This document shows, in pieces, positions 34,685 to 53,008 of a DNA stretch of 64,000 nt (positions are counted from its first letter, which is position 1; the number at the start of each line of letters is the position of its first letter). The DNA comes from Rhodospirillales bacterium (lineage in GTDB: Bacteria; Pseudomonadota; Alphaproteobacteria; Rhodospirillales; UBA2165). The notes beneath the pieces are model-generated. The model saw only the letters and a program-made list of their open reading frames with translations, ran no database searches and was not told where the DNA came from. The DNA is taken from the NCBI GenBank assembly GCA_022823235.1, contig JAJDXO010000024.1, positions 10,280 to 74,279 on the forward strand, in the 5' to 3' direction. Made by a program: the position numbers and the translations under genes.

Positions 34685-34687
34685 GGC

Positions 34688-38778: not shown

Positions 38779-38879
38779 ACGCCACCGAGCCGGCGTTTTT
38801 GACGCCGCCGCTACCGCTTTGTCGAACACGGCGTCCAGTATCCGGTTTTACCGTGTCACCCCCCGACAGAAGCCCCAGT

Positions 38880-38980
38880 ACCCGTGATGGCGGTGGCGGA
38901 TCAAACGATGCCTTAATGGATGTGCCGCCGATATCGGCTGCCAGCCTGAGGCCGCCATTCTGTTCGTGATTTGCGGTCAA
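38880..38980 (-). pseudogene. Relic N-terminus of an actin-fold ATPase (hydantoinase A-like or ROK kinase-like)
   Basis: GGLRLAADIGGTSIKASFD, after which similarity is lost. Confidence 0.35.
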
Positions 38981-39048
38981 TGTCGTGTCTCTCCCCCGAC
39001 GGCTGGATGGCGTCCTGGTCTCCTGCCGAAACTACGCGCGGCCCATTA

Positions 39049-39192
39049 TCAAGCGTCCGTGCTCATCAAGACAAATGCAACAAGGCGGGGCTCGGTGCCG
39101 GTGTTTTTCCAGCCGTGAATGTTCGCCTGCTGCACCAGCGTATCCCCCCTCTTCATGGTGAGTTCAAGCCCGTCTTCCAGTTCCAACCGTTG
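39049..39192 (-). pseudogene. C-terminal fragment of a cupin protein
   Basis: LELEDGLELTMKRGDTLVQQANIHGWKNTGTEPRLVAFVL with no N-terminal half. Confidence 0.6.
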
Positions 39193-39428
39193 GGCGCGGG
39201 ACGTTTTTATCGGAGTTGCCGCCCGGCACTGACGCCAATTCATCACTGGTATTAATTTATTTGATCAATAAGAAAAATTTCTCAAATGGTGCGAGAGTGC
39301 CCTAGAATTACGCCGTCAGGTCGGATTGAGCCATATCTCAATCGAACGCAGACCGCATAACGAACTTGTCCAACTACAAAACCAAAATTGACATTTGCTG
39401 AAATTCAATATCCAGGGAGGAAATTAAG

Positions 39429-40424
39429 ATGAAAAATGCAGGATTGATCGGAGTTCTTGCGCTCGCCGTTCTCGCGGCGCCGGCAGCCGCCGAGCCCATG
39501 AAGCTCAAGTTTGCTTCACCCTCGCCGCCGAAAGCGCACCTCAACGTCCAGATATTCGGTCCGTGGGTGAAGAAGGTCACGGCCGATTCCAAGGGGACGC
39601 TGGACGTCGAGTTGGTTGCCGGCCGGGTGCTGGCGAGCCACCAGAACCTGTTCGATCGCGTGAAGACCAATGTGGCCCAAATCGGGTGGAGCCTGCAGGG
39701 ATTCGTCCCCGGCAAGTTCAAGAAATCCAACATCGTCGCATTGCCCCTCCTGTTCGAGACGTCGTCGGTCGGATCCCGGGCCTTGTGGCGGCTCTATGAA
39801 CGGGGGCTGATTTCCGACGAGTATCAGGACGTCAAACTTCTGGCGGCCTTCTCGTTCGCGCCGAACGCGCTCCACACCAATTCTCCCGTCAAATCCCTGG
39901 AAGATCTGAAGGGGATGAAAATCGGCTCGACCGGGCCGATGCGGCTCGCAACCGTTGGCGCCCTGGGCGCGACGCCCGTGTCCATGATCACGCCCAAAAT
40001 CTATCAGAACGTGAGCCGCGGTCTGGTCAAGGGTACGTTCATCGCCTGGACCGCGTTTCAGCCCTACCGGCTCTACGAGGTCACCAAATACCACACCGAC
40101 ATCGCCTTGGGCGGTGCCGCCGGCATGGTCATCATGAACAAGAAGACCTATGACGGTCTGAAAGGCGACGCCCGGAGAGCCATCGATAAGAATTCCTTCG
40201 CCGGTTTGGTTCGCAAGTATTCCGAGTTTTGGGATCGAATCCAGGCCGGGTCGAAGAAGAAGTACGGCTCGCTGGAAGGCCACACGGTGATCAAGCTCAC
40301 CGATGCCGAAGAGAAGCGTTGGGCGGACGCGACGCTGTCCGTCCACACCGAATGGGCAAAGAATACGCCGAACGGCGAAGCCATTCTCGCGGCATTCAAG
40401 GAAGAAATAGCCAAGCTCAAATAG
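39429..40424 (+). CDS. dctP: TRAP substrate-binding protein
   Basis: GGGAGG RBS, signal peptide, DctP fold motifs; the usual K(I/L)R position reads KIG. Confidence 0.88.
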   Translation: MKNAGLIGVLALAVLAAPAAAEPMKLKFASPSPPKAHLNVQIFGPWVKKVTADSKGTLDVELVAGRVLASHQNLFDRVKTNVAQIGWSLQGFVPGKFKKSNIVALPLLFETSSVGSRALWRLYERGLISDEYQDVKLLAAFSFAPNALHTNSPVKSLEDLKGMKIGSTGPMRLATVGALGATPVSMITPKIYQNVSRGLVKGTFIAWTAFQPYRLYEVTKYHTDIALGGAAGMVIMNKKTYDGLKGDARRAIDKNSFAGLVRKYSEFWDRIQAGSKKKYGSLEGHTVIKLTDAEEKRWADATLSVHTEWAKNTPNGEAILAAFKEEIAKLK

Positions 40425-40451
40425 GCCGGCCAGCATCAAGCGAAGCCGGTT

Positions 40452-42425
40452 TTGATGTCTTCGTGGCCCAACAACTATGTTGAAAGAAGCATCGCGATCA
40501 CCCGTCGCGTTGCTTCTTTCGGCGTCTTGGGGATGCTCGTCATCTCCCTCTTGACCGTGGGCGATATCACACTGCGGTTTGTATTCAACTCGCCGATCGT
40601 CGGGTTCAACGAGGTCGTGGAGATGGTCATGGCGGTCGCCATCGCGGCGACGTTCCCGGCCGGCCTCGCCCAGCGGGTGCATCTGAAAATCGATCTGCTG
40701 GGCGGCGTTCTCAGTCCGCGAACCCGATGCTGGCTGAACCCCCTGGGTTCGTTCCTGTTGCTCCTCATCTTTTTGGTGTTTGCCTGGCGGATCGGCCATC
40801 ACGCCATCGAGGTCGATAATATCGGCAAGACGACGATGATCCTCGAATGGCGGCTGTCTCCGTTCATGTGGGTGATTACCGCGCTGATGGCCGTGTGCGC
40901 CCTGATTCAGTTCGTCGTGCTGCTGACGGATATCGCGAACGCGTTTGCCGGATTTGTTCCGCCGCGGGATTTCGGCGAAGAAAAAGAGCCGCAACGGCTG
41001 AGCGGCCGGCCGATCACGCCAACCCTGTTTGGCATCATCGCCGTCTTGCTGGTGGCCGTTATCGCCGGCCTGAACGTGTCGCTGCAGGGCATGACGGAGT
41101 TTCTGCCGTCCGTTTTGCCCGACTCCAAGGCGGCCATCGCGGTCACCTTCTTCCTGTTTATGTGGGTCATGATCCTGGCGCTGGTGCCATTGGCGGCGGC
41201 CATGGGTCTGATCGGCTTGATCGGGACGATCCTCATGGTCGGCTTCGAACCGGCCCTCGGCGTGATCGGCACCGAGGTTGTGGAATTCCTGACCAACGGA
41301 AACCTGGCGGTCCTGCCCCTGTTTCTGATGATGGGCGCCTTCGCCTCCGTCGCGGGTCTTTCCGGAGATATCTACAAACTGGCCCATGTCTTGATCGGCC
41401 ACCGGCGGGGCGGGCTTGCGCTGGCGACCATCGGCGGATGCGCCGGGTTTGGCGCGCTGACCGGCTCCTCGCTGGCGACCGCGGTCACAATCGGCCGCGT
41501 GGCCCTGCCGGAAATGCGGGAGCGCGGCTACTCGCCCGACCTCGCGACGGGCTGCGTGGCGGCCGGCGGAACGCTGGGGCAGTTGGTCCCTCCGTCGTCG
41601 GCGATCGTCATCTACGCAATCCTGGTGGAGGAATCCATCGGACGGCTGTTTATCGCGGCCGTTGTGCCCGCGATCATCGCGACGATCTTCTACATGGTCA
41701 CCGTTTCGCTTTACATCCGCTTCGCCAGGAAATCGGCGCCGGCAAGCGAACGGCCGACAGGCGCCGAGGTCTGGGCGGCGCTTCGCCAAAGCTGGGGCGT
41801 GATTGCTCTCTTCGGGGTGGTGATCGGCGGCATCTACGGGGGCATTTTTACCGTCAACGAGGCGGCGGCCGTCGGCGCGGGCGGCGCCTTCATGTTTGCG
41901 CTGTTCCGGGGAAAACTCCACCGGGGCGCCATCTGGGAGGTGATGGGCGAGACCACTCAGACCACGGCGATGATCTACGCGCTGATATTCGGCGCCGTGA
42001 CGTTCTCGTTCTTCATCGGGACGACGGGATTGACCGGCATGGTAACCGACGCCATCGGCGGGCTCGATCTTCACCGGATCGCCATAATTTTCCTGATCCT
42101 TCTGGTCTACCTGATCCTCGGTGCGATCATGGATCCGTTCGCGCTGATGGTGATCACCGTGCCCATCGTATCGCCGCTGATCCTCGATCTCGGATACGAC
42201 CTGATCTGGTTCGGCATCATCATGGTCGTGGTGGTGGAGACGGGCCTGATCACCCCGCCGTTCGGCATCAACGTGTTCGTTTTGAAGGGGGTGGCCGGAG
42301 ATGTTCCCATGCCGACCATATTCAAGGGCGTTCTGCCGTTCGTCGGCGCCGACATCGTGAAGCTCGTTCTGCTGGTCTTTTTCCCGGCATTGATCCTCTG
42401 GCTGCCCTCGACGATGATAAATTGA
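40452..42425 (+). CDS. Fused TRAP DctQ-DctM permease
   Basis: N-terminal DctQ segment (DITLRFVFNSPI) followed by DctM motifs VLPLFLMMG, GGTLGQLVPPS and ITPPFG. Confidence 0.88.
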   Translation: MMSSWPNNYVERSIAITRRVASFGVLGMLVISLLTVGDITLRFVFNSPIVGFNEVVEMVMAVAIAATFPAGLAQRVHLKIDLLGGVLSPRTRCWLNPLGSFLLLLIFLVFAWRIGHHAIEVDNIGKTTMILEWRLSPFMWVITALMAVCALIQFVVLLTDIANAFAGFVPPRDFGEEKEPQRLSGRPITPTLFGIIAVLLVAVIAGLNVSLQGMTEFLPSVLPDSKAAIAVTFFLFMWVMILALVPLAAAMGLIGLIGTILMVGFEPALGVIGTEVVEFLTNGNLAVLPLFLMMGAFASVAGLSGDIYKLAHVLIGHRRGGLALATIGGCAGFGALTGSSLATAVTIGRVALPEMRERGYSPDLATGCVAAGGTLGQLVPPSSAIVIYAILVEESIGRLFIAAVVPAIIATIFYMVTVSLYIRFARKSAPASERPTGAEVWAALRQSWGVIALFGVVIGGIYGGIFTVNEAAAVGAGGAFMFALFRGKLHRGAIWEVMGETTQTTAMIYALIFGAVTFSFFIGTTGLTGMVTDAIGGLDLHRIAIIFLILLVYLILGAIMDPFALMVITVPIVSPLILDLGYDLIWFGIIMVVVVETGLITPPFGINVFVLKGVAGDVPMPTIFKGVLPFVGADIVKLVLLVFFPALILWLPSTMIN

Positions 42426-42453
42426 CGGTCGGGGAGGCTGAGGGCGAAGTGGC

Positions 42454-43359
42454 ATGAAGCTTGTTTCCTTTAACACCGATCGGGGGCCCGGCGTCGGGCT
42501 TGTCGCCGATGACGACCGCATCGTCGATCTCCGGCCGCTCGGAGAGGGCTTCCGCTCGATGCGGGCCATCCTGGAGAACGGCGAGGCGGCGCTTAACGCC
42601 GTTCGCGCCGTCTCCTCGGATCGCCAAGAGGCGCCCGGAGAGCCTGTCCGGTTAAAGGATGCGGACCTTTTGCCGCCCGTCCCGAACCCGAAACTGATCC
42701 TCTCCGTCGGTCTCAATTACTGGAAGCACCTGGAGGAGATGGAGGGAACGCCGGTGCCCAAGCATCCGGCGGCGTTCATCAAGACGCGGGACTCGCTGCT
42801 CGGTTCGGGCAAGCCGGTCACCGCGCCAAGCCAATGCCCCGATATGATGGACTACGAAGGGGAGTTGTGCGTCGTCATGGGCAGGGTGTGCCACGATGCG
42901 GATGCCTCGGCGGCCATGGACGCCGTCGCCGGCTACACCATCGCCAACGACATTTCGGCGCGCAACTGGGTTCACGAGGTCTTCGAGGCGGACGGGACGT
43001 TTCCGGCCATCCACGCCTGGGAGAGAAACCTCAACGGCAAGCAGTTGCCCGGCTTCACGCCATGCGGCCCGGTCCTTGTGACCAAGGACGAGATTCCCGA
43101 TCCCCACGGCCTGCACATGGAGACCCGGCTCAACGGCGAGGTCATGCAATCCACGGGGACGGACGACATGATTTTCAAGATCCCCGATCTCATCGCCTAC
43201 TATTCGAAATGGTTCCGGTTCAATCCCGGCGACATCATCACCACCGGCTCCCCGGCGGGAGTGGGTTTCGGCCGCGATCCCAAGGTGTTCATGAAGCCGG
43301 GCGATGTCGTGGAGGTCGAGGTGGAAGGGATCGGAATCCTGACGAACCGCATTTCATAG
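42454..43359 (+). CDS. Fumarylacetoacetate hydrolase family protein
   Basis: VGLNYWKH, DYEGEL, NDISAR, GK and TGSPAGVG. Confidence 0.9.
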   Translation: MKLVSFNTDRGPGVGLVADDDRIVDLRPLGEGFRSMRAILENGEAALNAVRAVSSDRQEAPGEPVRLKDADLLPPVPNPKLILSVGLNYWKHLEEMEGTPVPKHPAAFIKTRDSLLGSGKPVTAPSQCPDMMDYEGELCVVMGRVCHDADASAAMDAVAGYTIANDISARNWVHEVFEADGTFPAIHAWERNLNGKQLPGFTPCGPVLVTKDEIPDPHGLHMETRLNGEVMQSTGTDDMIFKIPDLIAYYSKWFRFNPGDIITTGSPAGVGFGRDPKVFMKPGDVVEVEVEGIGILTNRIS

Positions 43360-43400: not shown

Positions 43401-44306
43401 TCAGAAGATCTTTCCGTCGAAAAACCGCTCCATGAACCCATTGAAGGCATCGATCTTTGCCGGCACGTATCTGCTCCGTGCAAACAGGCTGTAGATCGAC
43501 GCGCGCGGAAGGTCGTAGCCGCTCATGACCTGCCTGACGGTTCCGCCGGCGAGCTGTTCGCGAAAAAATGCCTCCGGCCCATAGGCGATGCCGAGACCTT
43601 GCTCGGCCGCGGCGGCGATTACCCGCCCCGCGCTCGTGGTTACCCGGCTTGAAACGGGCACCGCGTAGTCATGCCCGTTGCGGGATAGACGCCAGATGCC
43701 CGGGTCCTCGACATAGCTGTATGACAGGCATTGATGCCGGGCCAAGTCATCGGGCGTGGTCGGCTCGCCATGCCGGTCAAGATAGCCGGGTGACGCGCAC
43801 AGCATTCGCGTCGATTGGAACAGCCGATGAATACCCAGGGTCTTCGGTATCCGCGGTTCGGACTGAAGCAGGCGGATCGCGATATCGAACCCGCCCTCCA
43901 TTGGATCAACCAACTGGTCATTCAGGCTCAAATCCAGCCGGATGAGAGGAAATTCCCGTAGGAATTCGACAACGCCGTCTCCCAAATCGTTCAGGCCGAA
44001 ATTGATCGGCGCGACGACGCGCAATGTTCCCTGAGGTCCGGAGCTGGAATCCGAAACGCTGCGCTCCGCAACATCTATCTCGTCGAGGATCCGGCGGCAC
44101 CTTTCGTAGAAGTTGCCGCCCACATCCGTGAGGCTCATTTGCCTGGTCGTGCGGTTCAGAAGCCTGGCGCCAAGCCTCTCCTCCAGATCAAGAATATGGC
44201 GGCTTACCGCCGCCCTCGATGTACCGGTGCGCCTGGTGGCCTTGGTAAATCCACCCGTTTCGACGACCGCGGTGAAAGCCTTCATCTGATCAAGCTGGTT
44301 CGCCAT
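43401..44306 (-). CDS. LysR-family regulator (CrgA/DmlR-like)
   Basis: AVSRHILDLEERLGARLLNRTTR and FDIAIR; divergent from ligAB-pobA. Confidence 0.92.
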   Translation of the reverse strand: MANQLDQMKAFTAVVETGGFTKATRRTGTSRAAVSRHILDLEERLGARLLNRTTRQMSLTDVGGNFYERCRRILDEIDVAERSVSDSSSGPQGTLRVVAPINFGLNDLGDGVVEFLREFPLIRLDLSLNDQLVDPMEGGFDIAIRLLQSEPRIPKTLGIHRLFQSTRMLCASPGYLDRHGEPTTPDDLARHQCLSYSYVEDPGIWRLSRNGHDYAVPVSSRVTTSAGRVIAAAAEQGLGIAYGPEAFFREQLAGGTVRQVMSGYDLPRASIYSLFARSRYVPAKIDAFNGFMERFFDGKIF

Positions 44307-44317
44307 GCTTCGGTCCC

Positions 44318-44368
44318 CATATTGTCAATTATTATGGGACAATATGTTTCAATAATAACATATTGTCC
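44318..44368. promoter_or_regulatory. Candidate operator: three alternating CATATTGTC half-sites
   Basis: Half-sites at 44318-26 (+), 44338-46 (-) and 44359-67 (+); perfect 12-bp inverted repeat GGACAATATGTT-N8-AACATATTGTCC. Confidence 0.6.
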
Positions 44369-44429
44369 AATTTTTCCGCTCTATTTAGAGTCGCCCCGGT
44401 ACGTTGGATCACGGCGCGAGGGAGACGAG

Positions 44430-44789
44430 ATGGTTGACCAGCTGAAGCCCGGCAAATCGATCAAGGACACTTACGTCTTTGATTTGAAGATGAGCGAGAG
44501 AGGCATGCGCATCAACCGATTGGCCGAGTGGTTGAACGGCGCGGAAAACCGTGAGGCATTCAAATCGGACATGGACGCCGTCATGGATCGCTTCGAACTG
44601 ACCGGCGAGGAGAAGAAGCTGATCCTCGATAACGACTGGCTCAATCTCGTGAAGGCCGGCGGCAATATCTACAACGTCGTCCGGATCGCCGCGATCTTCG
44701 ACGTTGGCCTCTACCCGTTGGGGGCTCAACAACTCGGCATGTCCTACGAGGAATTTCTCGAAACCCGCAATGAAAAGGGAGCGACCTGA
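44430..44789 (+). CDS. ligA: Class III extradiol dioxygenase small subunit (LigA-like)
   Basis: INRLAEWL...NREAF...DWLNLVKAGGNIY...GMSYEEF; directly upstream of ligB. Confidence 0.75.
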   Translation: MVDQLKPGKSIKDTYVFDLKMSERGMRINRLAEWLNGAENREAFKSDMDAVMDRFELTGEEKKLILDNDWLNLVKAGGNIYNVVRIAAIFDVGLYPLGAQQLGMSYEEFLETRNEKGAT

Positions 44790-44790
44790 G

Positions 44791-45636
44791 ATGGCCATGA
44801 TTGTTGCAGGAATTGGAACCTCGCATGTTCCGTCGATTGGCGCCGTCGTGGATAGCGGAAGGCAGAATACGCCGGAGTGGAAGCCTCTCTTCGACGCCTA
44901 CGAGCCGGTAAGGACCTGGTTGTCGGATGAGCGGAAGGTCGACGCGGTCATCGTCATCTATAACGATCACGCCTGCGATTTTTCGTTCTCCAAATATCCG
45001 ACCTTCGCCGTCGGCGCCGCGTCCGAATATGCGATCGCCGATGAGGGTTTCGGCGTCCGGCCGCTGCCGCCGGTAAAGGGCGATCTGGACCTTTCCGCGC
45101 ATATCTGCCGGCATCTCGTCTACGAGGAAGAGTTCGACATCACCATCTGCAAGGAAATGGCCGTCGAACACGGCCTGCTGGTTCCGATGGATCTGTGTTT
45201 TCCGCAGCAGGGCGAGTGGCCGGTCAAGGTCATCCCAGTGCAGGTCAACGTCCTCCAGCATCCCATCCCGACGGCGCTCCGCTGCTTCAAGCTGGGCGCG
45301 GCCCTGAGACGCGCCGTCGAAAGCTATGACCGGGATGTCAATGTGGCCGTCATGGGCACCGGCGGGATGTCGCATCAACTGCACGGTGAGCGGTTCGGGC
45401 ATCTGAACTCCGACTTCGACAATTGGTTCCTGGACAAAATCGAATCGGACCCGCAGGCGATTTGCGGCATGACCCATTTTGATTTGATGGAGCAGGCGGG
45501 CGCCGAAGCGGTCGAGCTCATCATGTGGCTCACCATGCGTGGCGCCATGACCCCCGATGCCCAACGAATTCATCGCAATTACTACGCGCCGATGACCACC
45601 GGCATGGGCCTGATCACCATGCAGGACGCCGCCTAG
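44791..45636 (+). CDS. ligB: Class III extradiol dioxygenase catalytic subunit (LigB-like; protocatechuate or gallate type)
   Basis: TSHVP, YNDH, GTGGMSHQL and GAEAVELIMW. Confidence 0.85.
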   Translation: MAMIVAGIGTSHVPSIGAVVDSGRQNTPEWKPLFDAYEPVRTWLSDERKVDAVIVIYNDHACDFSFSKYPTFAVGAASEYAIADEGFGVRPLPPVKGDLDLSAHICRHLVYEEEFDITICKEMAVEHGLLVPMDLCFPQQGEWPVKVIPVQVNVLQHPIPTALRCFKLGAALRRAVESYDRDVNVAVMGTGGMSHQLHGERFGHLNSDFDNWFLDKIESDPQAICGMTHFDLMEQAGAEAVELIMWLTMRGAMTPDAQRIHRNYYAPMTTGMGLITMQDAA

Positions 45637-45688
45637 TTTTTTTCCGAACTTGCGTCCCCGCCGCGCGCCGGGCAGAGAGGTAACCGTT

Positions 45689-46873
45689 ATGCACGTTCCC
45701 GTAGCAATCGTTGGGGCCGGCCCCTCGGGATCCCTGTTGGCCTGGATCCTTCGCCTCCGCGGCATTGAGAGTATCGTCCTCGAGGCGAGAAGCCGCGAAT
45801 ATGTAGAGCAGCGAATTCGTGCCGGCGTGTTGGAGCAGGGCACCGTCGATATGCTGATCAAGGCCGGTATCGGCGACCGGTTGAAGAAAGAGCACATGTA
45901 CCATCGGGGCGTCTGCATCGGCTACCGGAACCGGCATTACATGCTCGATTTCGAAGAGCTGATCGGCCGCGGCGTTACGGTTTACGGTCAACAGGAAATC
46001 ACCCGCGATCTGCTCGGGGCGCTCGCCAAGGAAAATCACAATGTCATTTATGAAGCGCCCGTTGTTGCGATCGAGGATATCGACAGCGATCGGCCGGCGG
46101 TTCGCTATGAGCACAACGGCCGGACTCACGAGTTGACGGCCGACATCGTTGCAGGGTGTGACGGCTTCCATGGGGCATCCCGGAAGGCCATGCCGGCCGA
46201 CGTCCTGAAGGCCTACGAAACGGTGTATCCCTTCGGCTGGCTGGGCGTCCTGGCCGAGGCTCCCCCGTCAAAAGAGGTTGCGCTTTTTTCCCACCACGAA
46301 AACGGCTTCGCCCTGTTGAGCATGAGATCGCCGACGATCAGCCGTCTATATCTCCAATGCGCGCCGGATGAAGACTTGTCGGAATGGTCCGACGGCCGAA
46401 TATGGGACGAGTTGGAAACGCGGTTGGGGGCGCCCGGATGGACGCTCGAACGCGGGCCGATACTTCAAAAGGAGGTCACGCCGTTGCGGAGCTTCTTCTC
46501 CGAACCGATGCAGCATGGGCGCCTGTTTCTGGCCGGGGATGCGGCACATGTGGTTCCCCCTACCGGCGCAAAGGGTTTGAACTCGGCCGTTGCGGATGTC
46601 AGCGTGCTTTCGGCGGCGTTGATCGACCATTTCACGAAGGGCGACGAGGCGCTGCTTCGGCGATACTCGGACATCGCCCTGGAACGAAACTGGCAGGTCC
46701 AGAGATTCTCCTGGTCGAACACGGCGATGTATCACGTCTATCCGGACCGCTCCCCATTCGATGCCCGTATGCACGAGGCGCAGCTTCGGTATCTGATCGG
46801 CGACAGATCGCCGCAGATCGTCTATGCCGAAAACCATACGGGGCTCCCGATCAGTCACTGGCCGGAGATCTAA
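45689..46873 (+). CDS. pobA: 4-hydroxybenzoate 3-monooxygenase homologue with altered active site
   Basis: RIRAGVLEQG, GCDGFHG, YPFGWLG and GDAAHVVPPTGAKGLN. Confidence 0.8.
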   Translation: MHVPVAIVGAGPSGSLLAWILRLRGIESIVLEARSREYVEQRIRAGVLEQGTVDMLIKAGIGDRLKKEHMYHRGVCIGYRNRHYMLDFEELIGRGVTVYGQQEITRDLLGALAKENHNVIYEAPVVAIEDIDSDRPAVRYEHNGRTHELTADIVAGCDGFHGASRKAMPADVLKAYETVYPFGWLGVLAEAPPSKEVALFSHHENGFALLSMRSPTISRLYLQCAPDEDLSEWSDGRIWDELETRLGAPGWTLERGPILQKEVTPLRSFFSEPMQHGRLFLAGDAAHVVPPTGAKGLNSAVADVSVLSAALIDHFTKGDEALLRRYSDIALERNWQVQRFSWSNTAMYHVYPDRSPFDARMHEAQLRYLIGDRSPQIVYAENHTGLPISHWPEI

Positions 46874-48513
46874 CGTCCGACAACGACATCGAGGATTTGA
46901 TCCGGATTGTCCGGCTCGGTATCGCCGCGCCACGCCACGTGCTGATCGGGGCGGATGAGCGCCAGCGGCTTTTCGTAAAGCGCCAGCAAGCCCGGCTCGG
47001 TTACGTCCACGACCGTCATCGGAATACCACGATCCGCCGCGGCTTTCTCAATTCCCTCCACCGGCGGCGGGTTCTCACCCATGCGCAACAGGGTGAACCC
47101 GGGACCGAAGCGGTCGAACAACGACTCCCGGTCTTCAATCCAGTAGTGGGGCGCCCGCCCGCCGGGCGTAGCCGAGGGCACGTAGGCTTTCGGGTCATCG
47201 GGCGGCGGTGCTGTGCCGTCATCGACGATGATCGGCGAGCCGTCATACCGGGCCCCGAGCTGAATACCCAGGCTGGCGAATTCTTCGCGAAAGGTGTCCA
47301 CCTCGTTGGCGAATTCGGCCCGTTCGGCCTCCCCTTCCGGCGAGTCCTCTTCGATGCGGGGTGGTATCTCGAGATTGGCGATTTTTTCGGCGAGGTTGCC
47401 GGATTCCGTGGTGTTGCGCACGCCGATGGGCCGGCGTTCCGCTTCGTAGCTATCGAGCAATTCGGCCCCGCCCCAGCCGTGGTGAACGGCGGCCAGCTTC
47501 CAGGCCAGGTTCGCGGCATCGTCCATGCCCGTGTTGAAGCCGAATCCGCCCGAAGGCGTGAACAGGTGAACCGAGTCGCCGGCGAGCAAAATCCGCCCCG
47601 ACTGATAGTGATCCAGCACCAGGGCGAGCCCGGCCCACCATTCCTGGACGGATACGACCTCGGCATCCACATCGGCCCCGATGGTCGTGTGAAACAGCTC
47701 CCGGATGTCGATGTCGCCGATGTCCGCGTCCTTGTCGATATGGGCAAGAATGACGAACTCCCCCCGGCAATCGAGGGAGATGCAGTCGAACCGCCGGTCG
47801 GAGTTGATCGTCAGGTAGTGCCATCCGACGGGCATGGTCAAAATGTCGTAGACCTTCGGCGCGCGGAGATAGATCGAGAGCATGCGCCCGTCATAAAAGT
47901 CGGTGCCGGACGATGAGCGGCCGCCGTACTTGAAACCGAGCGTCCGGCGGATCATTCCATTCCCGCCATCGCATCCGATCATGTAGCCGGCCCGGACGGC
48001 TTTGGTCCCGCCGGTGGAAATTTCCTCTATTTCAGCCTCGACAAAGCCGTCGCCCTGCTCGAATTCGTTCATCCGCCAGCTGAAGCGCAAATCGGCGGTC
48101 GGGTGCATTTCGGCGTGCCGCCGCAATACCGGCTCGAGATAGAACTGATTGCAGCGATGAATGGGTTCGGGCGTCAGCAGCGTCGGGCCCCACGGTCCCG
48201 GGTTGCCGACTTTCTCGTCGGTGCTGGGCATCTCGATCCTGCCCAGTTCGTACCCGTTGAACCGGGTCAGATAGACGATATCGGTCGGATGATCCGGCGG
48301 AACGCCGATCCGCCGCAGCTCGGCCGCGACGCCAAGACGACGCAAGTGCTCCATCGACCTTGCGTTGACCGTACTGCCCTTGGGGTGGGCCGACGTCGTT
48401 TCCTTGGCGTCGACAAGCAGAAACGGGACGTCCTTTACGCCCAGCTCGACGGCGAGGAACAGGCCTACCGTCCCGCCGCCAACGATCAGTACAGGTGTCT
48501 CGATGTCCGCCAT
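46870..48513 (-). CDS. FAD-dependent monooxygenase (PheA/TfdB-like), paralogue 1
   Basis: GGGTVG, IGCDGG, GDSVHLFTPSGGFGFNTG and LIRPDQHVAWRG. Confidence 0.88.
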   Translation of the reverse strand: MADIETPVLIVGGGTVGLFLAVELGVKDVPFLLVDAKETTSAHPKGSTVNARSMEHLRRLGVAAELRRIGVPPDHPTDIVYLTRFNGYELGRIEMPSTDEKVGNPGPWGPTLLTPEPIHRCNQFYLEPVLRRHAEMHPTADLRFSWRMNEFEQGDGFVEAEIEEISTGGTKAVRAGYMIGCDGGNGMIRRTLGFKYGGRSSSGTDFYDGRMLSIYLRAPKVYDILTMPVGWHYLTINSDRRFDCISLDCRGEFVILAHIDKDADIGDIDIRELFHTTIGADVDAEVVSVQEWWAGLALVLDHYQSGRILLAGDSVHLFTPSGGFGFNTGMDDAANLAWKLAAVHHGWGGAELLDSYEAERRPIGVRNTTESGNLAEKIANLEIPPRIEEDSPEGEAERAEFANEVDTFREEFASLGIQLGARYDGSPIIVDDGTAPPPDDPKAYVPSATPGGRAPHYWIEDRESLFDRFGPGFTLLRMGENPPPVEGIEKAAADRGIPMTVVDVTEPGLLALYEKPLALIRPDQHVAWRGDTEPDNPDQILDVVVGR

Positions 48514-48692: not shown

Positions 48693-50231
48693 CTAAACCA
48701 CCTCGACGGCCTGCATCATGCCCAAATCCTCGTGGCGCAGTATGTGGCAATGAATGACGAACTTCCCTCTGAATTTCCTGAAGTTTGTCTTGAAGGTGAC
48801 CGAACCGGGTTGGCCGCGCCGCCGGACCGGCAGGGCGATCGTGTCCTGCCAACGGCGCAGCGGGGAGTCGATTGCCAGCTCCACGCCGTCGAAATGGGTC
48901 ACGAAAAACGGATTTACGTGGATATGGTAGGGATGTACGCCGTTTGTGTTGTTTTGAACCGTCCATTCCTCCGACTCGCCCAGTTTCATGGTTTGCCGGA
49001 TTTGGCCCGAATAAGCCTCTCCGTCGATCCGAAAACCCGGTCCGAATGTTATGGTTCTCTTTTTCAGTTGGTGATCGTCAAAACCCGGCAGTCCCGGTCC
49101 GGGGCCCGGCAGGGTGTCGTCCCCGGACCATTCATGGTCGACCGGGCGGCCCGCGATGCGGACCGCAAGCTGGACCGGTACGGTATCCGTCAAGACGCCG
49201 TCCAAATGGAGAAAATGGGCGAGCGAGCGCAGCGCCGAAACCATCGTCAGTCCGGTTGCCGCATCGGGGGGAACGCGCGCCATAAGGTCCATGCGATTGC
49301 CCGGTGACAGGGCCGCCGGGTTCAGCCACGGCGGTTCGCGTCCGGTGGATTGGACTCTATGGCGTTTCGGCAGGGTAATCCCGTCAAAGGCGATCTGGTG
49401 GAGTTCGAGGCCGGGATGGCTCGAGGAAATGTGAACGAACGACTCCGCCGTCGTCGCCGCGTTTATGATGCGCCATCTCTGAACTTCCCCCGGCCTCATG
49501 GTGATTGTCGGATCGAACTCGCCGCCGCCCGCGGGATCCACCCTGACCAATCCGCGATTGGTGATCATGAAAATCTGCTCGGCCGCGTTTTCGATATAGC
49601 CCGGCATCGCGCCGGGGCGGTCCTTGACGATCAGGGGGCCGAACAGCCCGCGGCCGACCTGCCGGTTTGTCGAGCCGTGCTTGTGCGCGTGGTACCAAAA
49701 GGTTCCGCTGGGATGGTCCGCCGGAATTTCGAAGCGGTACCTTGTTTCGTACCGGCGAAATTCCGGCGAGTCGCAGTTCAGCCTCTGTTCCCGCGGGACC
49801 ACCTGAAGGAACATGTTGTCGGCATCGTACCGGCCGCTGGAATCGGTGGTCGGAGACACATGCAGACCATGGGTATGGAGGTTCGTCGTATTCAGGCCGT
49901 GAAAGGCGTTGTGGTCGGAAACGCAGTCATCGTCGAGAGCGGGAAGGCTGTTGGTCAGGCGCACGTCCAGCGGCTCTCCCGGACTGGCATGGATGGTCGG
50001 TCCCGGAGACTTCCCGTTGTAGGCATAGCCGCGCCCATCCCGGCCCACGTCCAGATGAAAACCGGCAAAGCCGGTTTGTTCGCCATTCCCGTTTGCCGCG
50101 GTAGCCAAACCGTTCACGCCGGGTGTGGCGGACGCCGCGGCGGCGCCCAACGTCGCGCCCGACCATCCCAGTAATTTTCGGCGGCTTATCTTCCGGCCGC
50201 CTCTTTCGCGCGCCACGTTATCGATTCCCAA
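48693..50231 (-). CDS. Tat-exported multicopper oxidase; start uncertain
   Basis: SRRKLL Tat motif; all four Cu motifs present: HTHG, WYHAH, HPYHIH and HCHILRHEDLGM. Confidence 0.9.
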   Translation of the reverse strand: MGIDNVARERGGRKISRRKLLGWSGATLGAAAASATPGVNGLATAANGNGEQTGFAGFHLDVGRDGRGYAYNGKSPGPTIHASPGEPLDVRLTNSLPALDDDCVSDHNAFHGLNTTNLHTHGLHVSPTTDSSGRYDADNMFLQVVPREQRLNCDSPEFRRYETRYRFEIPADHPSGTFWYHAHKHGSTNRQVGRGLFGPLIVKDRPGAMPGYIENAAEQIFMITNRGLVRVDPAGGGEFDPTITMRPGEVQRWRIINAATTAESFVHISSSHPGLELHQIAFDGITLPKRHRVQSTGREPPWLNPAALSPGNRMDLMARVPPDAATGLTMVSALRSLAHFLHLDGVLTDTVPVQLAVRIAGRPVDHEWSGDDTLPGPGPGLPGFDDHQLKKRTITFGPGFRIDGEAYSGQIRQTMKLGESEEWTVQNNTNGVHPYHIHVNPFFVTHFDGVELAIDSPLRRWQDTIALPVRRRGQPGSVTFKTNFRKFRGKFVIHCHILRHEDLGMMQAVEVV

Positions 50232-50720: not shown

Positions 50721-51923
50721 ATGGCCTATCCGGAATTGGGGACAACGGGAAAAAATTATGCCGGGGAGAAGCTGCTCGAGGATCTTCAGGCGCTGGTTCC
50801 CGCCTTGCTGGACCGGGCGGGAGAAGCGGAGGAATCCGGCAGAATCCCCGAGGAAACCATTGACGACCTCAAGCGCATCGACGCGTTCAAGGCGGTCGTC
50901 CCATCGGCCTATGGCGGCCTGGAGGCCGACTATCCGGTGATCCCCCAGATTTTCCGCGTCCTGGGTCGCGGATGCACGTCGACGGCTTGGTGCATGGGAT
51001 TTCTGATCTTTCACAATTTTCAGTTCGGGTTCTTTCCCAAGGAAGCGCAGGAAGAAGTCTGGAGCGGGAAGGGCTACACGATGGCGCCGGGCCAGGTGAT
51101 GCCCAGCGGCGAGGCCATCCCGGAAGACGGCGGGTATCGGCTCTCCGGGCGCTGGGGCTATGCCACCGGCATTCTGCATGGGGACTGGATGCTGCTGAGC
51201 GCACCGGTGAAATTGGACGAGGGCAACGTCGATGTGCGCCGCTTCTATCTGCCTGTCGAGGACGTAAATCTCCTCGACACCTGGCACGTTTCCGCCATGA
51301 AGGCCACCGGCAGCCACGACGTCACCTTGGAGGACGTATTCGTGCCCGCTTACCGCAGTGTCCCGGCCGGCGCGATGCGCGACGGAACCGCGGAAGGGCT
51401 CAAACACATGAACGGCCCGTTGTGGAAGATGCCGCTCCTCACCTACATGATCTTTGGCGGCGTCGCGCCGATGATCGGCGCCGCGGAAACCCTCTTCGAA
51501 ATGGTCAGCGAAATTCTCTCGACGAAGGTCGGCGCCTATTCGGGAGAGAAACAGGCGGGTCTCACCACGCAAAGGGTCAGGATGGCGCGGCTGCGCATGG
51601 AACTCGAAGCGACCATCGGGCTTTGGGAGGATAGAATGGACTTCGCCTGGAACACCGTCGTCGAAGACGGAAGCCTCACCCGGGAACAGAGGGCCGAGAT
51701 GCGCATGGTCATCGTCCATGTCGCCCGAAAATGCACCGAGATCGTCAATGAATTGACGGTGGTTGCGGGCTCGCGGGGAACATTCATGGCGTCGCCGATC
51801 CAGCGGTTTCATCGCGACGTGACGTCATTGGCGACCCATGCGGTCCATGACTTCGACCATGTCGCAAACCTCTTTGGCGGAAGATTTCTCGGTGTCGATC
51901 TCCCCGAAAACGCGATGATTTGA
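50721..51923 (+). CDS. Acyl-CoA-dehydrogenase-fold two-component flavin monooxygenase (HsaA/HpaH-C2-like)
   Basis: LSGRWGYATG, WHVSAMKATGSHDV and IQRFHRDV...H. Confidence 0.85.
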   Translation: MAYPELGTTGKNYAGEKLLEDLQALVPALLDRAGEAEESGRIPEETIDDLKRIDAFKAVVPSAYGGLEADYPVIPQIFRVLGRGCTSTAWCMGFLIFHNFQFGFFPKEAQEEVWSGKGYTMAPGQVMPSGEAIPEDGGYRLSGRWGYATGILHGDWMLLSAPVKLDEGNVDVRRFYLPVEDVNLLDTWHVSAMKATGSHDVTLEDVFVPAYRSVPAGAMRDGTAEGLKHMNGPLWKMPLLTYMIFGGVAPMIGAAETLFEMVSEILSTKVGAYSGEKQAGLTTQRVRMARLRMELEATIGLWEDRMDFAWNTVVEDGSLTREQRAEMRMVIVHVARKCTEIVNELTVVAGSRGTFMASPIQRFHRDVTSLATHAVHDFDHVANLFGGRFLGVDLPENAMI

Positions 51924-51946: not shown

Positions 51947-53008
51947 ATGCGATTTCAGCAAACCGGCCTGCTGCACCACGACCCGGCCCGGTCGTATTCC
52001 GGATTCACCACGATCACCCCGTTCCGGCATCCGAGTTGCTATCTGGTCGACATGGCCGGTGAGACGGTCCACCAATGGGACCTGCCGGGGGCGCTCGGGT
52101 CCAAGGCTTATCTTCTCCCCGGCGGCAACCTGCTCTGCTCGGTCGCGACCGATGAAGGCGCGCCGCTCAAGGCGGCCAAGGGCGGGCGTATCCTGGAGCT
52201 GGATTGGGACGGCAATGTGGTCTGGGAGCATGTCGACCATGATCAGCACCACGACCTGCGCCGCCTCGAAAACGGCAACACCCTCTACATCGCATGGGAG
52301 GAACTGACCGGCGAAGAAATCTCCCGCGTCAAGGGCGGCGTCGCCGGTACGGAGCGGGACGGCAAGATCTATGGCGATGTGTTCCGCGAGGTCACGCCCT
52401 CGGGCGACGTGGCGTGGGAATGGCGGCTGGCCGACGTCGACCTGGACAAATACCCGCTTGCCGAAGACTGCCAGCGAGAGGAATGGGCGCACGCCAATTC
52501 CTGCGCGCCCGCCAACGACGGCAACTTCCTGTTCAACTTCCGCCATCTCGATCTCATGATGATCGTCGACCGCGGCACGAAGGAGATCATTTGGGAGCAG
52601 CGGGACCGCAGCTGGGGTCACCAGCACAATCCGGAAATGCTCGAGAACGGCAACATCACCTTCTTCGCCAACGGCATGAACAATCTCTACCAGCCGGTTC
52701 ACTCCCGCGCCATGGAGCTGGACCCGCGAACCGGAGAGATCACGTGGTTTTATCGCGATCCCCAAAGTTGGTGTTTCTTCAGCCCCGTGATGGGCGGCGT
52801 GCAGCGTCTGCCCAACGGCAACACGCTCATAAACGAGGCCGTCACCGGCCGGTTCTTCGAAGTGACCCATGAGGGCGACATGGTTTGGGAGTTCATAAAT
52901 CCCTACTTCCTGGAAGTCCCGGTCTTCGATGCGCCCTGCAACGCCTGCTTCCGGGCCTATCGGTACGCGCCCGACTCGCCGGAAATCGGCGGGCGATTGG
53001 GCGGGTGA
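51947..53008 (+). CDS. Arylsulfate sulfotransferase (ASST)-like beta-propeller with no signal peptide
   Basis: QHHDLRRLENGNTL, WAHANS, HQHNPE and VQRLPNGNTLINE. Confidence 0.75.
   Translation: MRFQQTGLLHHDPARSYSGFTTITPFRHPSCYLVDMAGETVHQWDLPGALGSKAYLLPGGNLLCSVATDEGAPLKAAKGGRILELDWDGNVVWEHVDHDQHHDLRRLENGNTLYIAWEELTGEEISRVKGGVAGTERDGKIYGDVFREVTPSGDVAWEWRLADVDLDKYPLAEDCQREEWAHANSCAPANDGNFLFNFRHLDLMMIVDRGTKEIIWEQRDRSWGHQHNPEMLENGNITFFANGMNNLYQPVHSRAMELDPRTGEITWFYRDPQSWCFFSPVMGGVQRLPNGNTLINEAVTGRFFEVTHEGDMVWEFINPYFLEVPVFDAPCNACFRAYRYAPDSPEIGGRLGG

What the first reader, a model, noticed from the sequence alone, without database searches (positions are those of the whole stretch)
45689..46873. Natural PobA variant lacking the Tyr201/Tyr385 phenol-activating network
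Seen by eye against Pseudomonas PobA numbering: ELIYANH corresponds to VALFSHH (L199A, Y201F) and AENYVGLP to AENHTGLP (Y385H). H72, S212, R214, R220, Y222 and T294 appear retained. Known: Y201 and Y385 deprotonate 4-hydroxybenzoate, and Y385/L199 mutants gain protocatechuate-to-gallate activity. Inference: a hydroxylase for a different benzoate (substituted, amino- or dihydroxy-) feeding the adjacent LigAB.
Basis: partly seen in the sequence, partly recalled or inferred. Interest (0 to 1): 0.62.

Follow-up and report, generated by a model that had tools for sequence, protein, structure and literature searches.

The report
Tyrosine-less PobA hydroxylase beside LigAB
This gene encodes a p-hydroxybenzoate-hydroxylase relative that has lost both substrate-activating tyrosines; it belongs to a conserved, mostly marine clade always encoded next to a LigAB-type ring-cleaving dioxygenase, and it most likely hydroxylates an already 3-substituted 4-hydroxybenzoate rather than 4-hydroxybenzoate itself.

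Summary
The 394-aa ORF at 45689-46873 (+) is an intact PobA-family flavoprotein. In Pseudomonas PobA numbering it has A199, F201 and H385 in place of L199, Y201 and Y385. H72, S212, R214, R220, Y222, P293 and T294 are retained.

These changes are not noise. All 102 relatives at 59-96% identity carry A199/F201/H385, and the residues revert to L/Y/Y in relatives at 57% identity or less. Only 34 of 185,579 species genomes carry the signature, mostly marine and sponge- or coral-associated Alpha- and Gammaproteobacteria.

The gene lies within 1.5 kb of ligA-ligB in all 27 loci where the flank is visible. Many clusters add ligI, ligJ or galB, ligK and ligU, and no ligC was seen in any of them. The nearest tyrosine-bearing relative examined sits beside pcaHG.

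The closest solved structure is the natural protocatechuate 5-hydroxylase XaPobA (clade F, 2023). It has the same regulator-ligA-ligB-pobA operon but a different residue signature (V/I199, W201, M210, F385).

My reading: a 5-hydroxylase of a 3-substituted 4-hydroxybenzoate, feeding a LigC-independent ring cleavage. Candidate substrates are protocatechuate, vanillate or 3-halo-4-hydroxybenzoate. It is a new, uncharacterised variant of a recently recognised kind. The substrate has not been tested.

The parts
45689..46873 (+). PobA-family FAD monooxygenase, 394 aa, of the 'AFH' clade (A199/F201/H385 in PobA numbering). Proposed 5-hydroxylase of a 3-substituted 4-hydroxybenzoate.
   Evidence: NF006091 533 bits (cut-off 351); TIGR02360 483.7 bits (cut-off 538.7). 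AlphaFold model pLDDT 91.4; best PDB match 8jqo, TM 0.96.
46280..46288 (+). Codons GCG-CTT-TTT, giving A199-L200-F201 in PobA numbering (own residues 198-200). They replace L-I-Y.
   Evidence: A and F are invariant in 103 of 103 clade members.
46835..46837 (+). Codon CAT, giving H385 in PobA numbering (own residue 383). It replaces Y385.
   Evidence: H in 99 of 99 clade members that cover the position.
44791..45636 (+). LigB-like catalytic (beta) subunit of a class III extradiol dioxygenase, 281 aa. The ATG lies 1 nt after the ligA stop.
   Evidence: NF009902 399.7 bits (cut-off 299); gallate dioxygenase model 336.9 (cut-off 412); 282 bits to LigB 1b4u and 277 bits to DesB 3wku; 61-64% identity to the LigB encoded next to characterised clade F hydroxylases, 46% to SYK-6 LigB, 43% to DesB.
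44430..44789 (+). LigA-like small (alpha) subunit, 119 aa.
   Evidence: best 81 bits, below every protocatechuate 4,5-dioxygenase alpha equivalog cut-off..
43401..44306 (-). Divergently transcribed LysR-type regulator, 301 aa. Conserved with the operon in the closest relatives.
   Evidence: 93% identical orthologues in L003, L012, L026, L030, L040.
44337..44368 (.). Perfect 12-bp inverted repeat, GGACAATATGTT-N8-AACATATTGTCC, in the lysR-ligA intergenic region. Candidate regulator binding site.
   Evidence: One search found the repeat. One search shows the region is nearly invariant across five orthologous loci. Function is inferred.
46870..48513 (-). 547-aa FAD monooxygenase (PRK06126 family), convergent with pobA*. 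Conserved neighbour in this cluster type; role unknown.
   Evidence: 93-94% identical orthologues in L003, L012, L026, L030.
39429..43359 (+). TRAP transporter (DctP 39429-40424, fused DctQM 40452-42425) and an FAA-hydrolase-family protein (42454-43359). Likely uptake and downstream functions.
   Evidence: The same three genes directly flank pobA* in L040. TRAP genes follow ligB in cluster type II.

Best explanation
The gene encodes an active, NAD(P)H- and FAD-dependent group A aromatic hydroxylase of the PobA family. It binds a benzoate through the conserved S212/R214/Y222 carboxylate clamp. It has exchanged the Tyr201-Tyr385 phenol-deprotonating relay and the bulky L199 for F201, H385 and A199.

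By homology with XaPobA and with engineered PobA variants, these changes open the sub-pocket that holds a substituent meta to the carboxylate. The substrate is therefore a 4-hydroxybenzoate that already carries a 3-substituent, and the enzyme hydroxylates C5. Candidate reactions are:
- protocatechuate to gallate (the best-precedented case)
- vanillate to 3-O-methylgallate
- 3-bromo- or 3-chloro-4-hydroxybenzoate to 5-halo-protocatechuate

The product is cleaved by the co-transcribed LigAB-type extradiol dioxygenase. Because C5 carries a heteroatom, cleavage yields 4-oxalomesaconate or 2-pyrone-4,6-dicarboxylate (PDC) directly. The CHMS dehydrogenase LigC is then not needed.

Shown: family membership, intact cofactor motifs and fold, the conserved signature, the conserved operon, and the composition of the lower pathway in relatives.
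Inferred: the substrate class, the regiochemistry and the pocket enlargement.
For: 1. Intact PobA-family enzyme. NF006091 scores 533 bits. The model has pLDDT 91.4 and matches 8jqo at TM 0.96. FAD motifs and carboxylate ligands are conserved.

2. It fails the 4-HB 3-monooxygenase equivalog cut-off and lacks Y201 and Y385.

3. The signature is invariant in 102 of 102 relatives. The clade is monophyletic with 100% bootstrap.

4. The best sequence and structure match is the natural protocatechuate 5-hydroxylase XaPobA (PMC10770758). XaPobA and OtPobA lie in MarR-ligA-ligB-pobA-tctC operons, the same module as here. The window's LigB is closest to theirs, at 61-64% identity.

5. In Pigmentiphaga kullae H8, phbh-pcaA-pcaB-regulator clusters degrade 3-bromo-4-hydroxybenzoate via bromo-protocatechuate (PMC12016517).

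6. ligAB lies within 1.5 kb in 27 of 27 informative loci. Cluster types I and II add LigI (352 bits to 4d8l), LigJ (498 bits to 6dxq) or a PIG-L GalB-like protein, OMA tautomerase and LigK. No GFO/IDH/MocA LigC appears in any +/-10 kb context.

7. LigAB enzymes convert gallate to OMA and 3-O-methylgallate to CHMOD and then PDC. Protocatechuate gives CHMS, which needs a further oxidation step (PMC8091115).

8. The nearest Y201/Y385 relative examined lies next to pcaHG.

9. PobA Y385F, L199V/Y385F and related mutants gain protocatechuate hydroxylation. In XaPobA the 3-OH pocket is formed by residues 72, 75, 199 and 201. Summed standard residue volumes at positions 72/75/199/201/385 are 725 cubic angstroms here, 847 in PaPobA and 887 in XaPobA.
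Against: - No biochemical data exist for any member of this clade.
- OtPobA (clade F) still uses 4-HB about as well as protocatechuate. Loss of the tyrosines therefore does not by itself exclude 4-HB turnover.
- H72 is retained. New polar or aromatic residues (N346, Y350, Y381) appear together with H385. They could rebuild a proton relay for 4-HB.
- The XaPobA V199A mutant is dead on protocatechuate, which argues against protocatechuate specifically.
- This window carries no ligI/J/K/U, and ligC could lie elsewhere in the genome.
- The LigC screen of unlabelled ORFs showed only the top 25 of 50 families.
- The sister relation to clade F has only 24% bootstrap support.
Confidence: 0.62

Rival explanations
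1. It is an ordinary 4-hydroxybenzoate 3-hydroxylase. It makes protocatechuate for a protocatechuate 4,5-dioxygenase. A rebuilt proton network (H385 with Y350, Y381, N346 and H72) replaces Tyr201/Tyr385, and ligC is encoded elsewhere.
For: It passes the PobA subfamily model and keeps the carboxylate clamp, H72, P293 and T294. Public annotations name clade members 4-hydroxybenzoate 3-monooxygenase. Clade-specific gains of Y350, Y381 and N346 accompany H385. OtPobA without the tyrosines retains kcat/Km 8.2 per mM per s on 4-HB. LigAB-type enzymes do cleave protocatechuate.
Against: It falls below the equivalog cut-off. F201 cannot hydrogen-bond the 4-OH. In XaPobA, restoring Tyr at 201 or 385 raises 4-HB activity. 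No ligC was seen in any cluster, although the rest of the lower pathway is often present. The nearest tyrosine-bearing relative examined partners with pcaHG, so the residue change coincides with the change of partner.
Confidence: 0.2
2. It hydroxylates a benzoate with a different para or ortho group, such as 4-aminobenzoate, 2,4-dihydroxybenzoate or 4-mercaptobenzoate, for which phenol deprotonation is not needed.
For: Loss of a deprotonating relay fits a substrate that needs no deprotonation. PobA binds 4-aminobenzoate and 2,4-dihydroxybenzoate (PDB 1pbb and related titles).
Against: XaPobA showed no activity on these compounds. The associated lower pathway (LigI, LigJ/GalB, LigU, LigK) processes PDC and OMA. 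It has no deaminase or semialdehyde dehydrogenase. LigB here is 58-64% identical to partners of protocatechuate or halo-HB hydroxylases.
Confidence: 0.08
3. It is a decaying or uncoupled enzyme (an NADPH oxidase or pseudo-enzyme) with no specific catabolic role.
For: PaPobA Y201F and Y385F mutants are reported as largely impaired or uncoupled (literature summarised in PMC10770758). One relative, L025, carries an in-frame TGA.
Against: The reading frame is intact. All cofactor and carboxylate residues are conserved over a 59-96% identity range in more than 100 lineages, which indicates purifying selection. Operon coupling with ligAB is conserved.
Confidence: 0.03

Closest known systems
Clade F protocatechuate 5-hydroxylases: XaPobA (PDB 8JQO/8JQP/8JQQ), OtPobA, PkPobA (Katsuki et al. 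2023, PMC10770758)
   Same: - PobA fold: TM 0.96, rmsd 1.4 angstroms, 50% identity.
- Both Tyr201 and Tyr385 are missing.
- The S212/R214/Y222 clamp and P293-T294-G295 are retained.
- The operon is the same: regulator(-)-ligA-ligB-pobA-transporter.
- The partner LigB proteins are each other's closest relatives among those compared.
   Different: - Every signature residue differs. Here H72, V75, A199, F201, L210, T347, H385, against M/Q72, I75, V/I199, W201, M210, C347, F385.
- Clade F builds a hydrophobic cavity. This clade keeps or gains polar residues (H72, H385, N346, Y350, Y381) and has about 160 cubic angstroms less side-chain volume at five of the cavity positions named for XaPobA.
- XaPobA V199A is inactive, yet A199 is invariant here.
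- Hosts differ: marine Alpha- and Gammaproteobacteria rather than Burkholderiales.
- Regulators are LysR or IclR rather than MarR.
- Common ancestry is unresolved (24% bootstrap).
Canonical p-hydroxybenzoate hydroxylase PobA (P. aeruginosa/fluorescens, PDB 1PBE and related; EC 1.14.13.2)
   Same: 48% identity and the same length and fold. The FAD motifs, R44, H72, S212, R214, R220, Y222, P293 and T294 are all retained.
   Different: L199A, Y201F, Y385H, E198V, M346N, L350Y and I381Y. It falls below the TIGR02360 cut-off. It is encoded with ligAB, whereas the closest tyrosine-bearing relative examined is encoded with pcaHG.
Engineered PobA variants that make gallate (Y385F, L199V/Y385F, Y385F/T294A, V47I/L199N/T294A/Y385I)
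   Same: The same positions (199 and 385) are altered, towards smaller or non-hydroxyl residues. Those changes let protocatechuate bind with C5 facing the flavin (PDB 6ju1).
   Different: This is a natural enzyme. It additionally lacks Y201, has His rather than Phe/Ile at 385, and keeps T294.
bhb1/bhb2 clusters of Pigmentiphaga kullae H8 (phbh-pcaA-pcaB-regulator; 3-bromo-4-hydroxybenzoate catabolism; PMC12016517)
   Same: A minimal module of one PobA-type hydroxylase, a two-subunit protocatechuate-4,5-type dioxygenase and one regulator (LysR in bhb1). It is genetically shown to degrade a 3-substituted 4-hydroxybenzoate via bromo-protocatechuate.
   Different: The Phbh1/2 sequences could not be fetched, so residue signatures and orthology were not compared. 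The host is a soil betaproteobacterium.
Gallate and syringate lower pathways (P. putida galABCD; Sphingobium SYK-6 and Novosphingobium LigAB/DesB/DesZ-LigI-LigU-LigJ-LigK)
   Same: Related clusters carry OMA tautomerase, CHA aldolase, LigJ or a PIG-L GalB-like hydratase, and LigI. LigAB enzymes accept gallate and 3-O-methylgallate.
   Different: The dioxygenase is a separate two-subunit branch, 43-46% identical to both LigB and DesB. A hydroxylase, not an O-demethylase, sits at the head of the operon. This window has none of the lower-pathway genes.

Membership tests
PobA / PHBH family (group A flavoprotein monooxygenase; NCBIfam NF006091) | Full-length profile match above the curated cut-off | tested here: met
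   533 bits against 351; residues 1-389 on profile positions 1-391.
PobA / PHBH family (group A flavoprotein monooxygenase; NCBIfam NF006091) | FAD fingerprints (GxGxxG, DG, GD) and the PHBH fold | tested here: met
   GAGPSG, CDGFHG and GDAAHVVPPTGAKGLN are present and invariant. Model pLDDT 91.4, TM 0.95-0.96 to PHBH and PCAH structures.
PobA / PHBH family (group A flavoprotein monooxygenase; NCBIfam NF006091) | Benzoate carboxylate clamp S212/R214/Y222, plus R220, P293 and T294 | tested here: met
   All present in the query and in at least 102 of 103 clade members.
4-hydroxybenzoate 3-monooxygenase sensu stricto (EC 1.14.13.2; TIGR02360 equivalog) | Equivalog score at or above the cut-off | tested here: not met
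   483.7 bits against a cut-off of 538.7.
4-hydroxybenzoate 3-monooxygenase sensu stricto (EC 1.14.13.2; TIGR02360 equivalog) | Tyr201-Tyr385(-His72) proton relay that deprotonates the 4-OH | tested here: not met
   F201 and H385 replace the tyrosines; H72 is retained. Westphal et al. 2018 found Tyr201 100% conserved in their PHBH set.
4-hydroxybenzoate 3-monooxygenase sensu stricto (EC 1.14.13.2; TIGR02360 equivalog) | Coupled conversion of 4-HB to protocatechuate | not testable with these tools
   Needs an enzyme assay.
Clade F protocatechuate 5-hydroxylase (XaPobA type) | Signature residues V/I199, W201, M210, F385 (plus M/Q72, I75, C347) | tested here: not met
   A199, F201, L210, H385, H72, V75 and T347.
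Clade F protocatechuate 5-hydroxylase (XaPobA type) | Phylogenetic placement inside or sister to clade F | tested here: inconclusive
   Sister in the NJ tree but with 24% bootstrap. Each clade alone has 100%.
Clade F protocatechuate 5-hydroxylase (XaPobA type) | Operon regulator-ligA-ligB-pobA | tested here: met
   Window 43401-46873, compared with L042 and L043.
Clade F protocatechuate 5-hydroxylase (XaPobA type) | Protocatechuate-dependent NADPH oxidation yielding gallate | not testable with these tools
   Needs an assay.
Protocatechuate 4,5-dioxygenase LigAB / gallate dioxygenase (the neighbouring genes) | Equivalog-level match to LigA (TIGR02792, NF009918), LigAB fusion (NF009912) or gallate dioxygenase (NF009904) | tested here: not met
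   LigA-like scores 81.3 (cut-off 161) and 55.1 (cut-off 108.6). LigB-like scores 336.9 (cut-off 412) and 318.3 (cut-off 837). Only the generic class III extradiol family NF009902 passes, 399.7 against 299.
Protocatechuate 4,5-cleavage pathway (ligABCIJK) | CHMS dehydrogenase LigC (GFO/IDH/MocA) encoded with ligAB | tested here: not met
   Absent from all +/-10 kb precomputed Pfam contexts and from the contiguous type I and II clusters. Not in the 25 of 50 families listed for unlabelled ORFs. Whole genomes were not searched.

The most novel reading that the evidence does not exclude
The enlarged A199/F201/H385 pocket is built for a bulky 3-substituent. The enzyme would hydroxylate 3-bromo- or 3-chloro-4-hydroxybenzoate, or vanillate, at C5. 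The partner LigAB then opens the ring, and bromide, chloride or methanol is expelled on cyclisation to PDC.

This would be a dehalogenase-free and O-demethylase-free route for halogenated or methoxylated phenolic acids. It would be widespread in sponge- and coral-associated and pelagic marine bacteria. It would also explain why the related clusters keep LigI but show no LigC.
Probability: 0.3. Interest if true: 0.7.

Novelty: new variant of a known kind. Interest (0 to 1): 0.5.

Why it matters
PobA is the textbook flavoprotein hydroxylase, and its Tyr201/Tyr385 'password' relay is considered essential. One natural tyrosine-less clade was described in 2023. This is a second, well-populated clade with a different and more polar solution (His385 with new Tyr350, Tyr381 and Asn346).

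- It offers an independent natural experiment on how substrate-triggered flavin reduction can work without the relay.
- Genome pipelines currently call all these genes 4-hydroxybenzoate 3-monooxygenase. If the reading here is right, marine aromatic-carbon budgets inferred from 'pobA + ligAB' are mis-assigned for this clade.
- The enzymes are candidate biocatalysts for gallate, 3-O-methylgallate or PDC production.
- They may also mark a ring-cleavage-driven dehalogenation or demethoxylation route in sponge symbionts.

Tried and rejected
- **Longer TTG start at 45650:** rejected on RBS, homologue length and an 11-bp indel in a near-identical strain.
- **Plasmid collection (tblastn):** only canonical PobAs below 60% identity, no clade member.
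- **TRAP binding proteins against the PDB:** best matches about 135 bits, too distant to infer a ligand.
- **Assigning the LigAB pair:** equidistant from LigB (282 bits) and DesB (277 bits), so it cannot be called either.
- **Expression evidence:** the four runs returned are of unknown type and behave like DNA assemblies, with contigs spanning intergenic regions. No statement on transcription is possible.
- **Single loss of the tyrosines shared with clade F:** the NJ tree is unresolved at 24% bootstrap.
- **50%-identity representative library:** it holds no separate representative of this clade, best 52% identity. It shows other scattered Tyr201-less lineages but none with A/F/H.
- **Exact search for the intergenic palindrome in other loci:** no match. 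Alignment shows it is conserved with one or two substitutions.
- **Literature searches:** 'protocatechuate hydroxylase + gallate' and 'protocatechuate 5-hydroxylase' found nothing. No paper found mentions an F201/H385 PobA. A 2026 SAR116 preprint treats pobA-ligAB as the ordinary protocatechuate route and has ligC.
- **Pfam screen for LigC in unlabelled flanking ORFs:** none among the listed families, but only 25 of 50 were shown.
Full report
**1. What is at the coordinates**

The window has an ORF at 45650-46873 (+). Its functional start is the ATG at 45689, for three reasons. A GAGAGG ribosome-binding site lies 8 nt upstream. Almost all relatives are exactly 394 aa. A ~95%-identical strain in public runs has an 11-bp insertion at 45651, which would destroy a longer frame.

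The 394-aa product is a full-length member of the PobA family. It scores 533 bits on NF006091 (cut-off 351). It falls below NCBI's equivalog model for 4-hydroxybenzoate 3-monooxygenase, TIGR02360, at 483.7 against 538.7. An AlphaFold model built on 37 homologues is confident (pLDDT 91.4, pTM 0.89). It superposes on PHBH-type structures at TM 0.95-0.96. The best match is 8JQO, the protocatechuate hydroxylase of Xylophilus ampelinus.

**2. The observation**

- L199 to A (GCG, 46280-46282)
- I200 to L
- Y201 to F (TTT, 46286-46288)
- Y385 to H (CAT, 46835-46837)

H72, S212, R214, R220, Y222, P293 and T294 are retained. F and H are each one nucleotide from a Tyr codon, so error had to be excluded.

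Among the 120 best database relatives, all 102 at 59-96% identity carry A199/F201/H385. Truncated fragments that lack position 385 are the only gaps. The 18 next-best relatives, at 57% identity or less and mostly 391 aa, all carry L199/Y201/Y385.

Further clade-specific replacements are L15S, R113L, E198V, K338Q, M346N, L350Y and I/L381Y. The clade has 100% bootstrap support.

A degenerate DNA pattern for V198-A199-x-F201...GFALLSMR matches once in the window and never in shuffles. It matches every clade locus fetched up to that point. It matches 34 of 185,579 species-representative genomes. These are mainly marine Alpha- and Gammaproteobacterial MAGs, several from sponges or corals. They also include Tropicibacter sp. 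Alg240-R139, Ruegeria lacuscaerulensis and R. arenilitoris isolates, and Shimia and Leisingera MAGs.

The window itself is found almost word-for-word in sponge metagenomes. Its closest genomic relatives are Rhodospirillales MAGs at 95% protein identity.

**3. Surroundings**

The gene is the third of a tight operon:
- ligA-like, 44430-44789
- ligB-like, 44791-45636, with its start 1 nt after the ligA stop
- pobA*, 45689-46873

A divergent LysR gene lies at 43401-44306. A perfect 12-bp inverted repeat lies in the intergenic region at 44337-44368 and is conserved in orthologous loci.

Upstream are a TRAP transporter and an FAA-hydrolase-family gene. Downstream, on the minus strand, are a 547-aa FAD monooxygenase and a multicopper oxidase.

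Across all clade loci, ligA and ligB lie within 1.5 kb of pobA* in 27 of the 34 genome loci. The other seven are cut by a contig or chunk edge, or show only 800 bp of flank. There is therefore no clear counter-example.

Three arrangements recur:
- **Type I (Gammaproteobacteria MAGs):** ligI, lysR, ligU, ligK, ligJ, pobA*, ligA, ligB and a VanA-like Rieske oxygenase.
- **Type II (Rhodobacteraceae and Rhizobiaceae):** SDR, a PIG-L protein (a GalB-like candidate), ligK, ligU, ligI, a SnoaL-like protein, pobA*, ligA, ligB and dctPQM.
- **Type III (this window and its Rhodospirillales relatives):** MCO, FAD monooxygenase, lysR, ligA, ligB and pobA*, with the TRAP and FAA-hydrolase genes beside it.

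Identities were checked:
- The ~295-aa amidohydrolase scores 352 bits to PDC hydrolase LigI (4D8L).
- The 350-aa amidohydrolase scores 498 bits to OMA hydratase LigJ (6DXQ).
- OMA tautomerase and CHA aldolase pass their NCBIfam equivalogs.

No GFO/IDH/MocA protein (LigC, the CHMS dehydrogenase) occurs in any +/-10 kb context with precomputed Pfam. There is no room for one in the contiguous type I and II clusters. A Pfam screen of 40 unlabelled flanking ORFs did not list it either, though only 25 of 50 families were displayed.

By contrast, the one tyrosine-bearing relative examined among the closest ones lies directly after pcaH-pcaG, the intradiol route.

**4. Comparison with what is known**

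The best PDB sequence hit is XaPobA at 427 bits, against about 398 for Pseudomonas PobA.

Katsuki et al. 2023 (PMC10770758) showed the following:
- 'Clade F' PobAs lack Tyr201 and Tyr385. Their signature is V/I199, W201, M210 and F385, and XaPobA also has M72, I75 and C347.
- They prefer protocatechuate and make gallate.
- They hold the substrate's 3-OH in a hydrophobic pocket formed by residues 72, 75, 199 and 201.
- The physiological role was left open.

I find that XaPobA and OtPobA are encoded in MarR(-)-ligA-ligB-pobA-tctC operons. This is the same module as in this window.

The window's LigB is 61-64% identical to theirs. It is 58% identical to the type I and II LigBs, 46% to SYK-6 LigB and 43% to DesB. 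The LigAB partners of tyrosine-less PobAs thus form their own branch. That branch passes only the generic class III extradiol model NF009902.

The same architecture (phbh-pcaA-pcaB plus a LysR or MarR regulator) was shown genetically in Pigmentiphaga kullae H8. There it degrades 3-bromo-4-hydroxybenzoate through bromo-protocatechuate (PMC12016517).

The present clade is nevertheless not clade F. It differs at every signature position: H72, V75, A199, F201, L210, T347 and H385. It keeps or gains polar residues where clade F is hydrophobic. The NJ sister grouping with clade F has only 24% bootstrap. The closest sequences by distance are tyrosine-bearing PobAs (56% identity, against 50% to XaPobA).

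**5. How it most likely works**

Shown:
- An intact PobA-type enzyme with the benzoate carboxylate clamp.
- Loss of the phenol-deprotonating tyrosines.
- Obligate genomic coupling to a LigAB-type dioxygenase.
- A lower pathway in relatives that starts at PDC or OMA, with no LigC seen.

Established chemistry (PMC8091115):
- LigAB-type cleavage of protocatechuate gives the semialdehyde CHMS, which must be oxidised before it can enter the pathway as PDC.
- Cleavage of gallate gives OMA directly.
- Cleavage of 3-O-methylgallate gives CHMOD, which cyclises to PDC.
- From my own recollection of Kersten, Chapman and Dagley 1985 (not re-read here), 5-halo-protocatechuates likewise give PDC with halide release.

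Inference: a cluster with LigI/LigU/LigJ(GalB)/LigK and no LigC makes sense if the ring-cleavage substrate carries a heteroatom at C5. The hydroxylase would then add the second ortho-hydroxyl to a 4-hydroxybenzoate that already has a 3-substituent. Three observations agree with this:
- Engineered PobAs gain protocatechuate hydroxylation by shrinking or de-hydroxylating exactly positions 199 and 385.
- In XaPobA, F385Y and W201Y shift preference back to 4-HB.
- Summed residue volumes at 72/75/199/201/385 are 725 cubic angstroms here, against 847 in PaPobA and 887 in XaPobA.

Which substituent is open:
- **Protocatechuate to gallate** has the best precedent. It also fits the GalB-like, LigK and LigU genes of type II.
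- **A bulkier group** (OCH3, Br or Cl) is suggested by several points. The pocket appears larger than XaPobA's. XaPobA V199A is inactive on protocatechuate. LigI is conserved. The Pigmentiphaga module has a 3-bromo-4-HB role. The habitat is sponge and coral; the abundance of brominated aromatics there is my own knowledge.

I put about 0.62 on the class '5-hydroxylase of a 3-substituted 4-hydroxybenzoate'. Within it, roughly 0.25 is protocatechuate, 0.2 is 3-halo-4-HB, 0.15 is vanillate, and the rest is other 3-substituents.

**6. Rivals**

- **An ordinary 4-HB 3-hydroxylase with a rebuilt relay** (H385, Y350, Y381, N346, H72), with ligC elsewhere. This remains possible at 0.2. OtPobA still turns over 4-HB. 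This window has no lower-pathway genes. Whole genomes were not searched.
- **Amino- or 2-hydroxy-benzoates.** The nitrogen-free lower pathway and XaPobA's lack of activity on them disfavour this (0.08).
- **A decaying enzyme.** Conservation across more than 100 lineages contradicts this (0.03).

**7. Novelty and verdict**

This is not a new kind of system. Natural tyrosine-less PobAs in ligAB operons have been known since 2022-2023.

It is, however, a distinct and uncharacterised clade with a different active-site solution, a marine and host-associated distribution, and a fuller pathway context than was reported for clade F. All public names found for it say '4-hydroxybenzoate 3-monooxygenase'.

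I rate it a new variant of a known kind, with interest 0.5. It rises to about 0.7 if the substrate proves to be a halogenated or methoxylated 4-hydroxybenzoate.

Noticed in passing
window 44337-44368: Perfect 12-bp inverted repeat (GGACAATATGTT-N8-AACATATTGTCC) between lysR and ligA. The whole ~120-bp intergenic region is nearly invariant in five orthologous loci. It is a likely operator for the LysR regulator.
   Followed up: partly
window 46870-48513 (-) and 53073-54722 (+): Two paralogous ~547-aa FAD monooxygenases (57% identical, PRK06126 family, substrate unknown). The first is a conserved neighbour of the ligAB-pobA* operon in the Rhodospirillales relatives. Its stop codon overlaps the pobA* stop codon tail-to-tail (46870-46873).
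   Followed up: partly
window 48693-50231 (-), 50721-51923, 51947-53008: A multicopper oxidase whose N-terminus looks like a twin-arginine export signal, an acyl-CoA-dehydrogenase-like (flavin monooxygenase type) protein, and an arylsulfotransferase-like protein. Together with the hydroxylases this looks like a phenolic-compound island.
   Followed up: no
window 5472-7229 (+): A 585-aa protein that combines a FAD_binding_3 monooxygenase domain with a C-terminal cytochrome b5-like domain. I do not recall seeing this fusion before.
   Followed up: no
window ~12000-28000 and 34000-40000: Stretches of lower G+C (0.55-0.58, against 0.62-0.65 elsewhere). They hold a 958-aa molybdopterin oxidoreductase, TctA/TctC transporter genes and a fumarate-hydratase-like gene. 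They may have been acquired separately.
   Followed up: no
L025 258-260 (OX638326.1, uncultured alphaproteobacterium): The pobA* orthologue has an in-frame TGA exactly at the Cys76 codon, in an otherwise intact 394-codon gene. It could be a pseudogene, an assembly error or, less likely, a recoded codon. Position 76 is variable in the clade.
   Followed up: partly
L004, L009, L010, L017, L020, L021, L023, L029, L041 (gene after ligB): A 353-aa VanA-like Rieske oxygenase (88-94% identical among these Gammaproteobacterial MAGs) directly follows ligB. No reductase partner was noted among the annotated neighbours. A VanA-like gene also lies near OtPobA (L043 4864-5937).
   Followed up: partly
L002 8291-9079, L008, L027, L034, L035: A conserved 262-aa SnoaL-like protein sits between ligI and pobA* in the Rhodobacteraceae and Rhizobiaceae clusters. 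An SDR and a PIG-L protein (GalB-like candidate) are also conserved there. The function of the SnoaL-like protein is unknown.
   Followed up: no
P0121-P0240; P0258, P0277, P0278, P0301, P0312, P0345: Clade F is far larger in metagenomes than the 37 sequences published: at least 120 clusters at 90% identity. It mostly has Q72 and I199 rather than XaPobA's M72 and V199. Several other PobA-like lineages also lack Tyr201 (for example F201/M385, M201/F385) and appear unstudied.
   Followed up: partly
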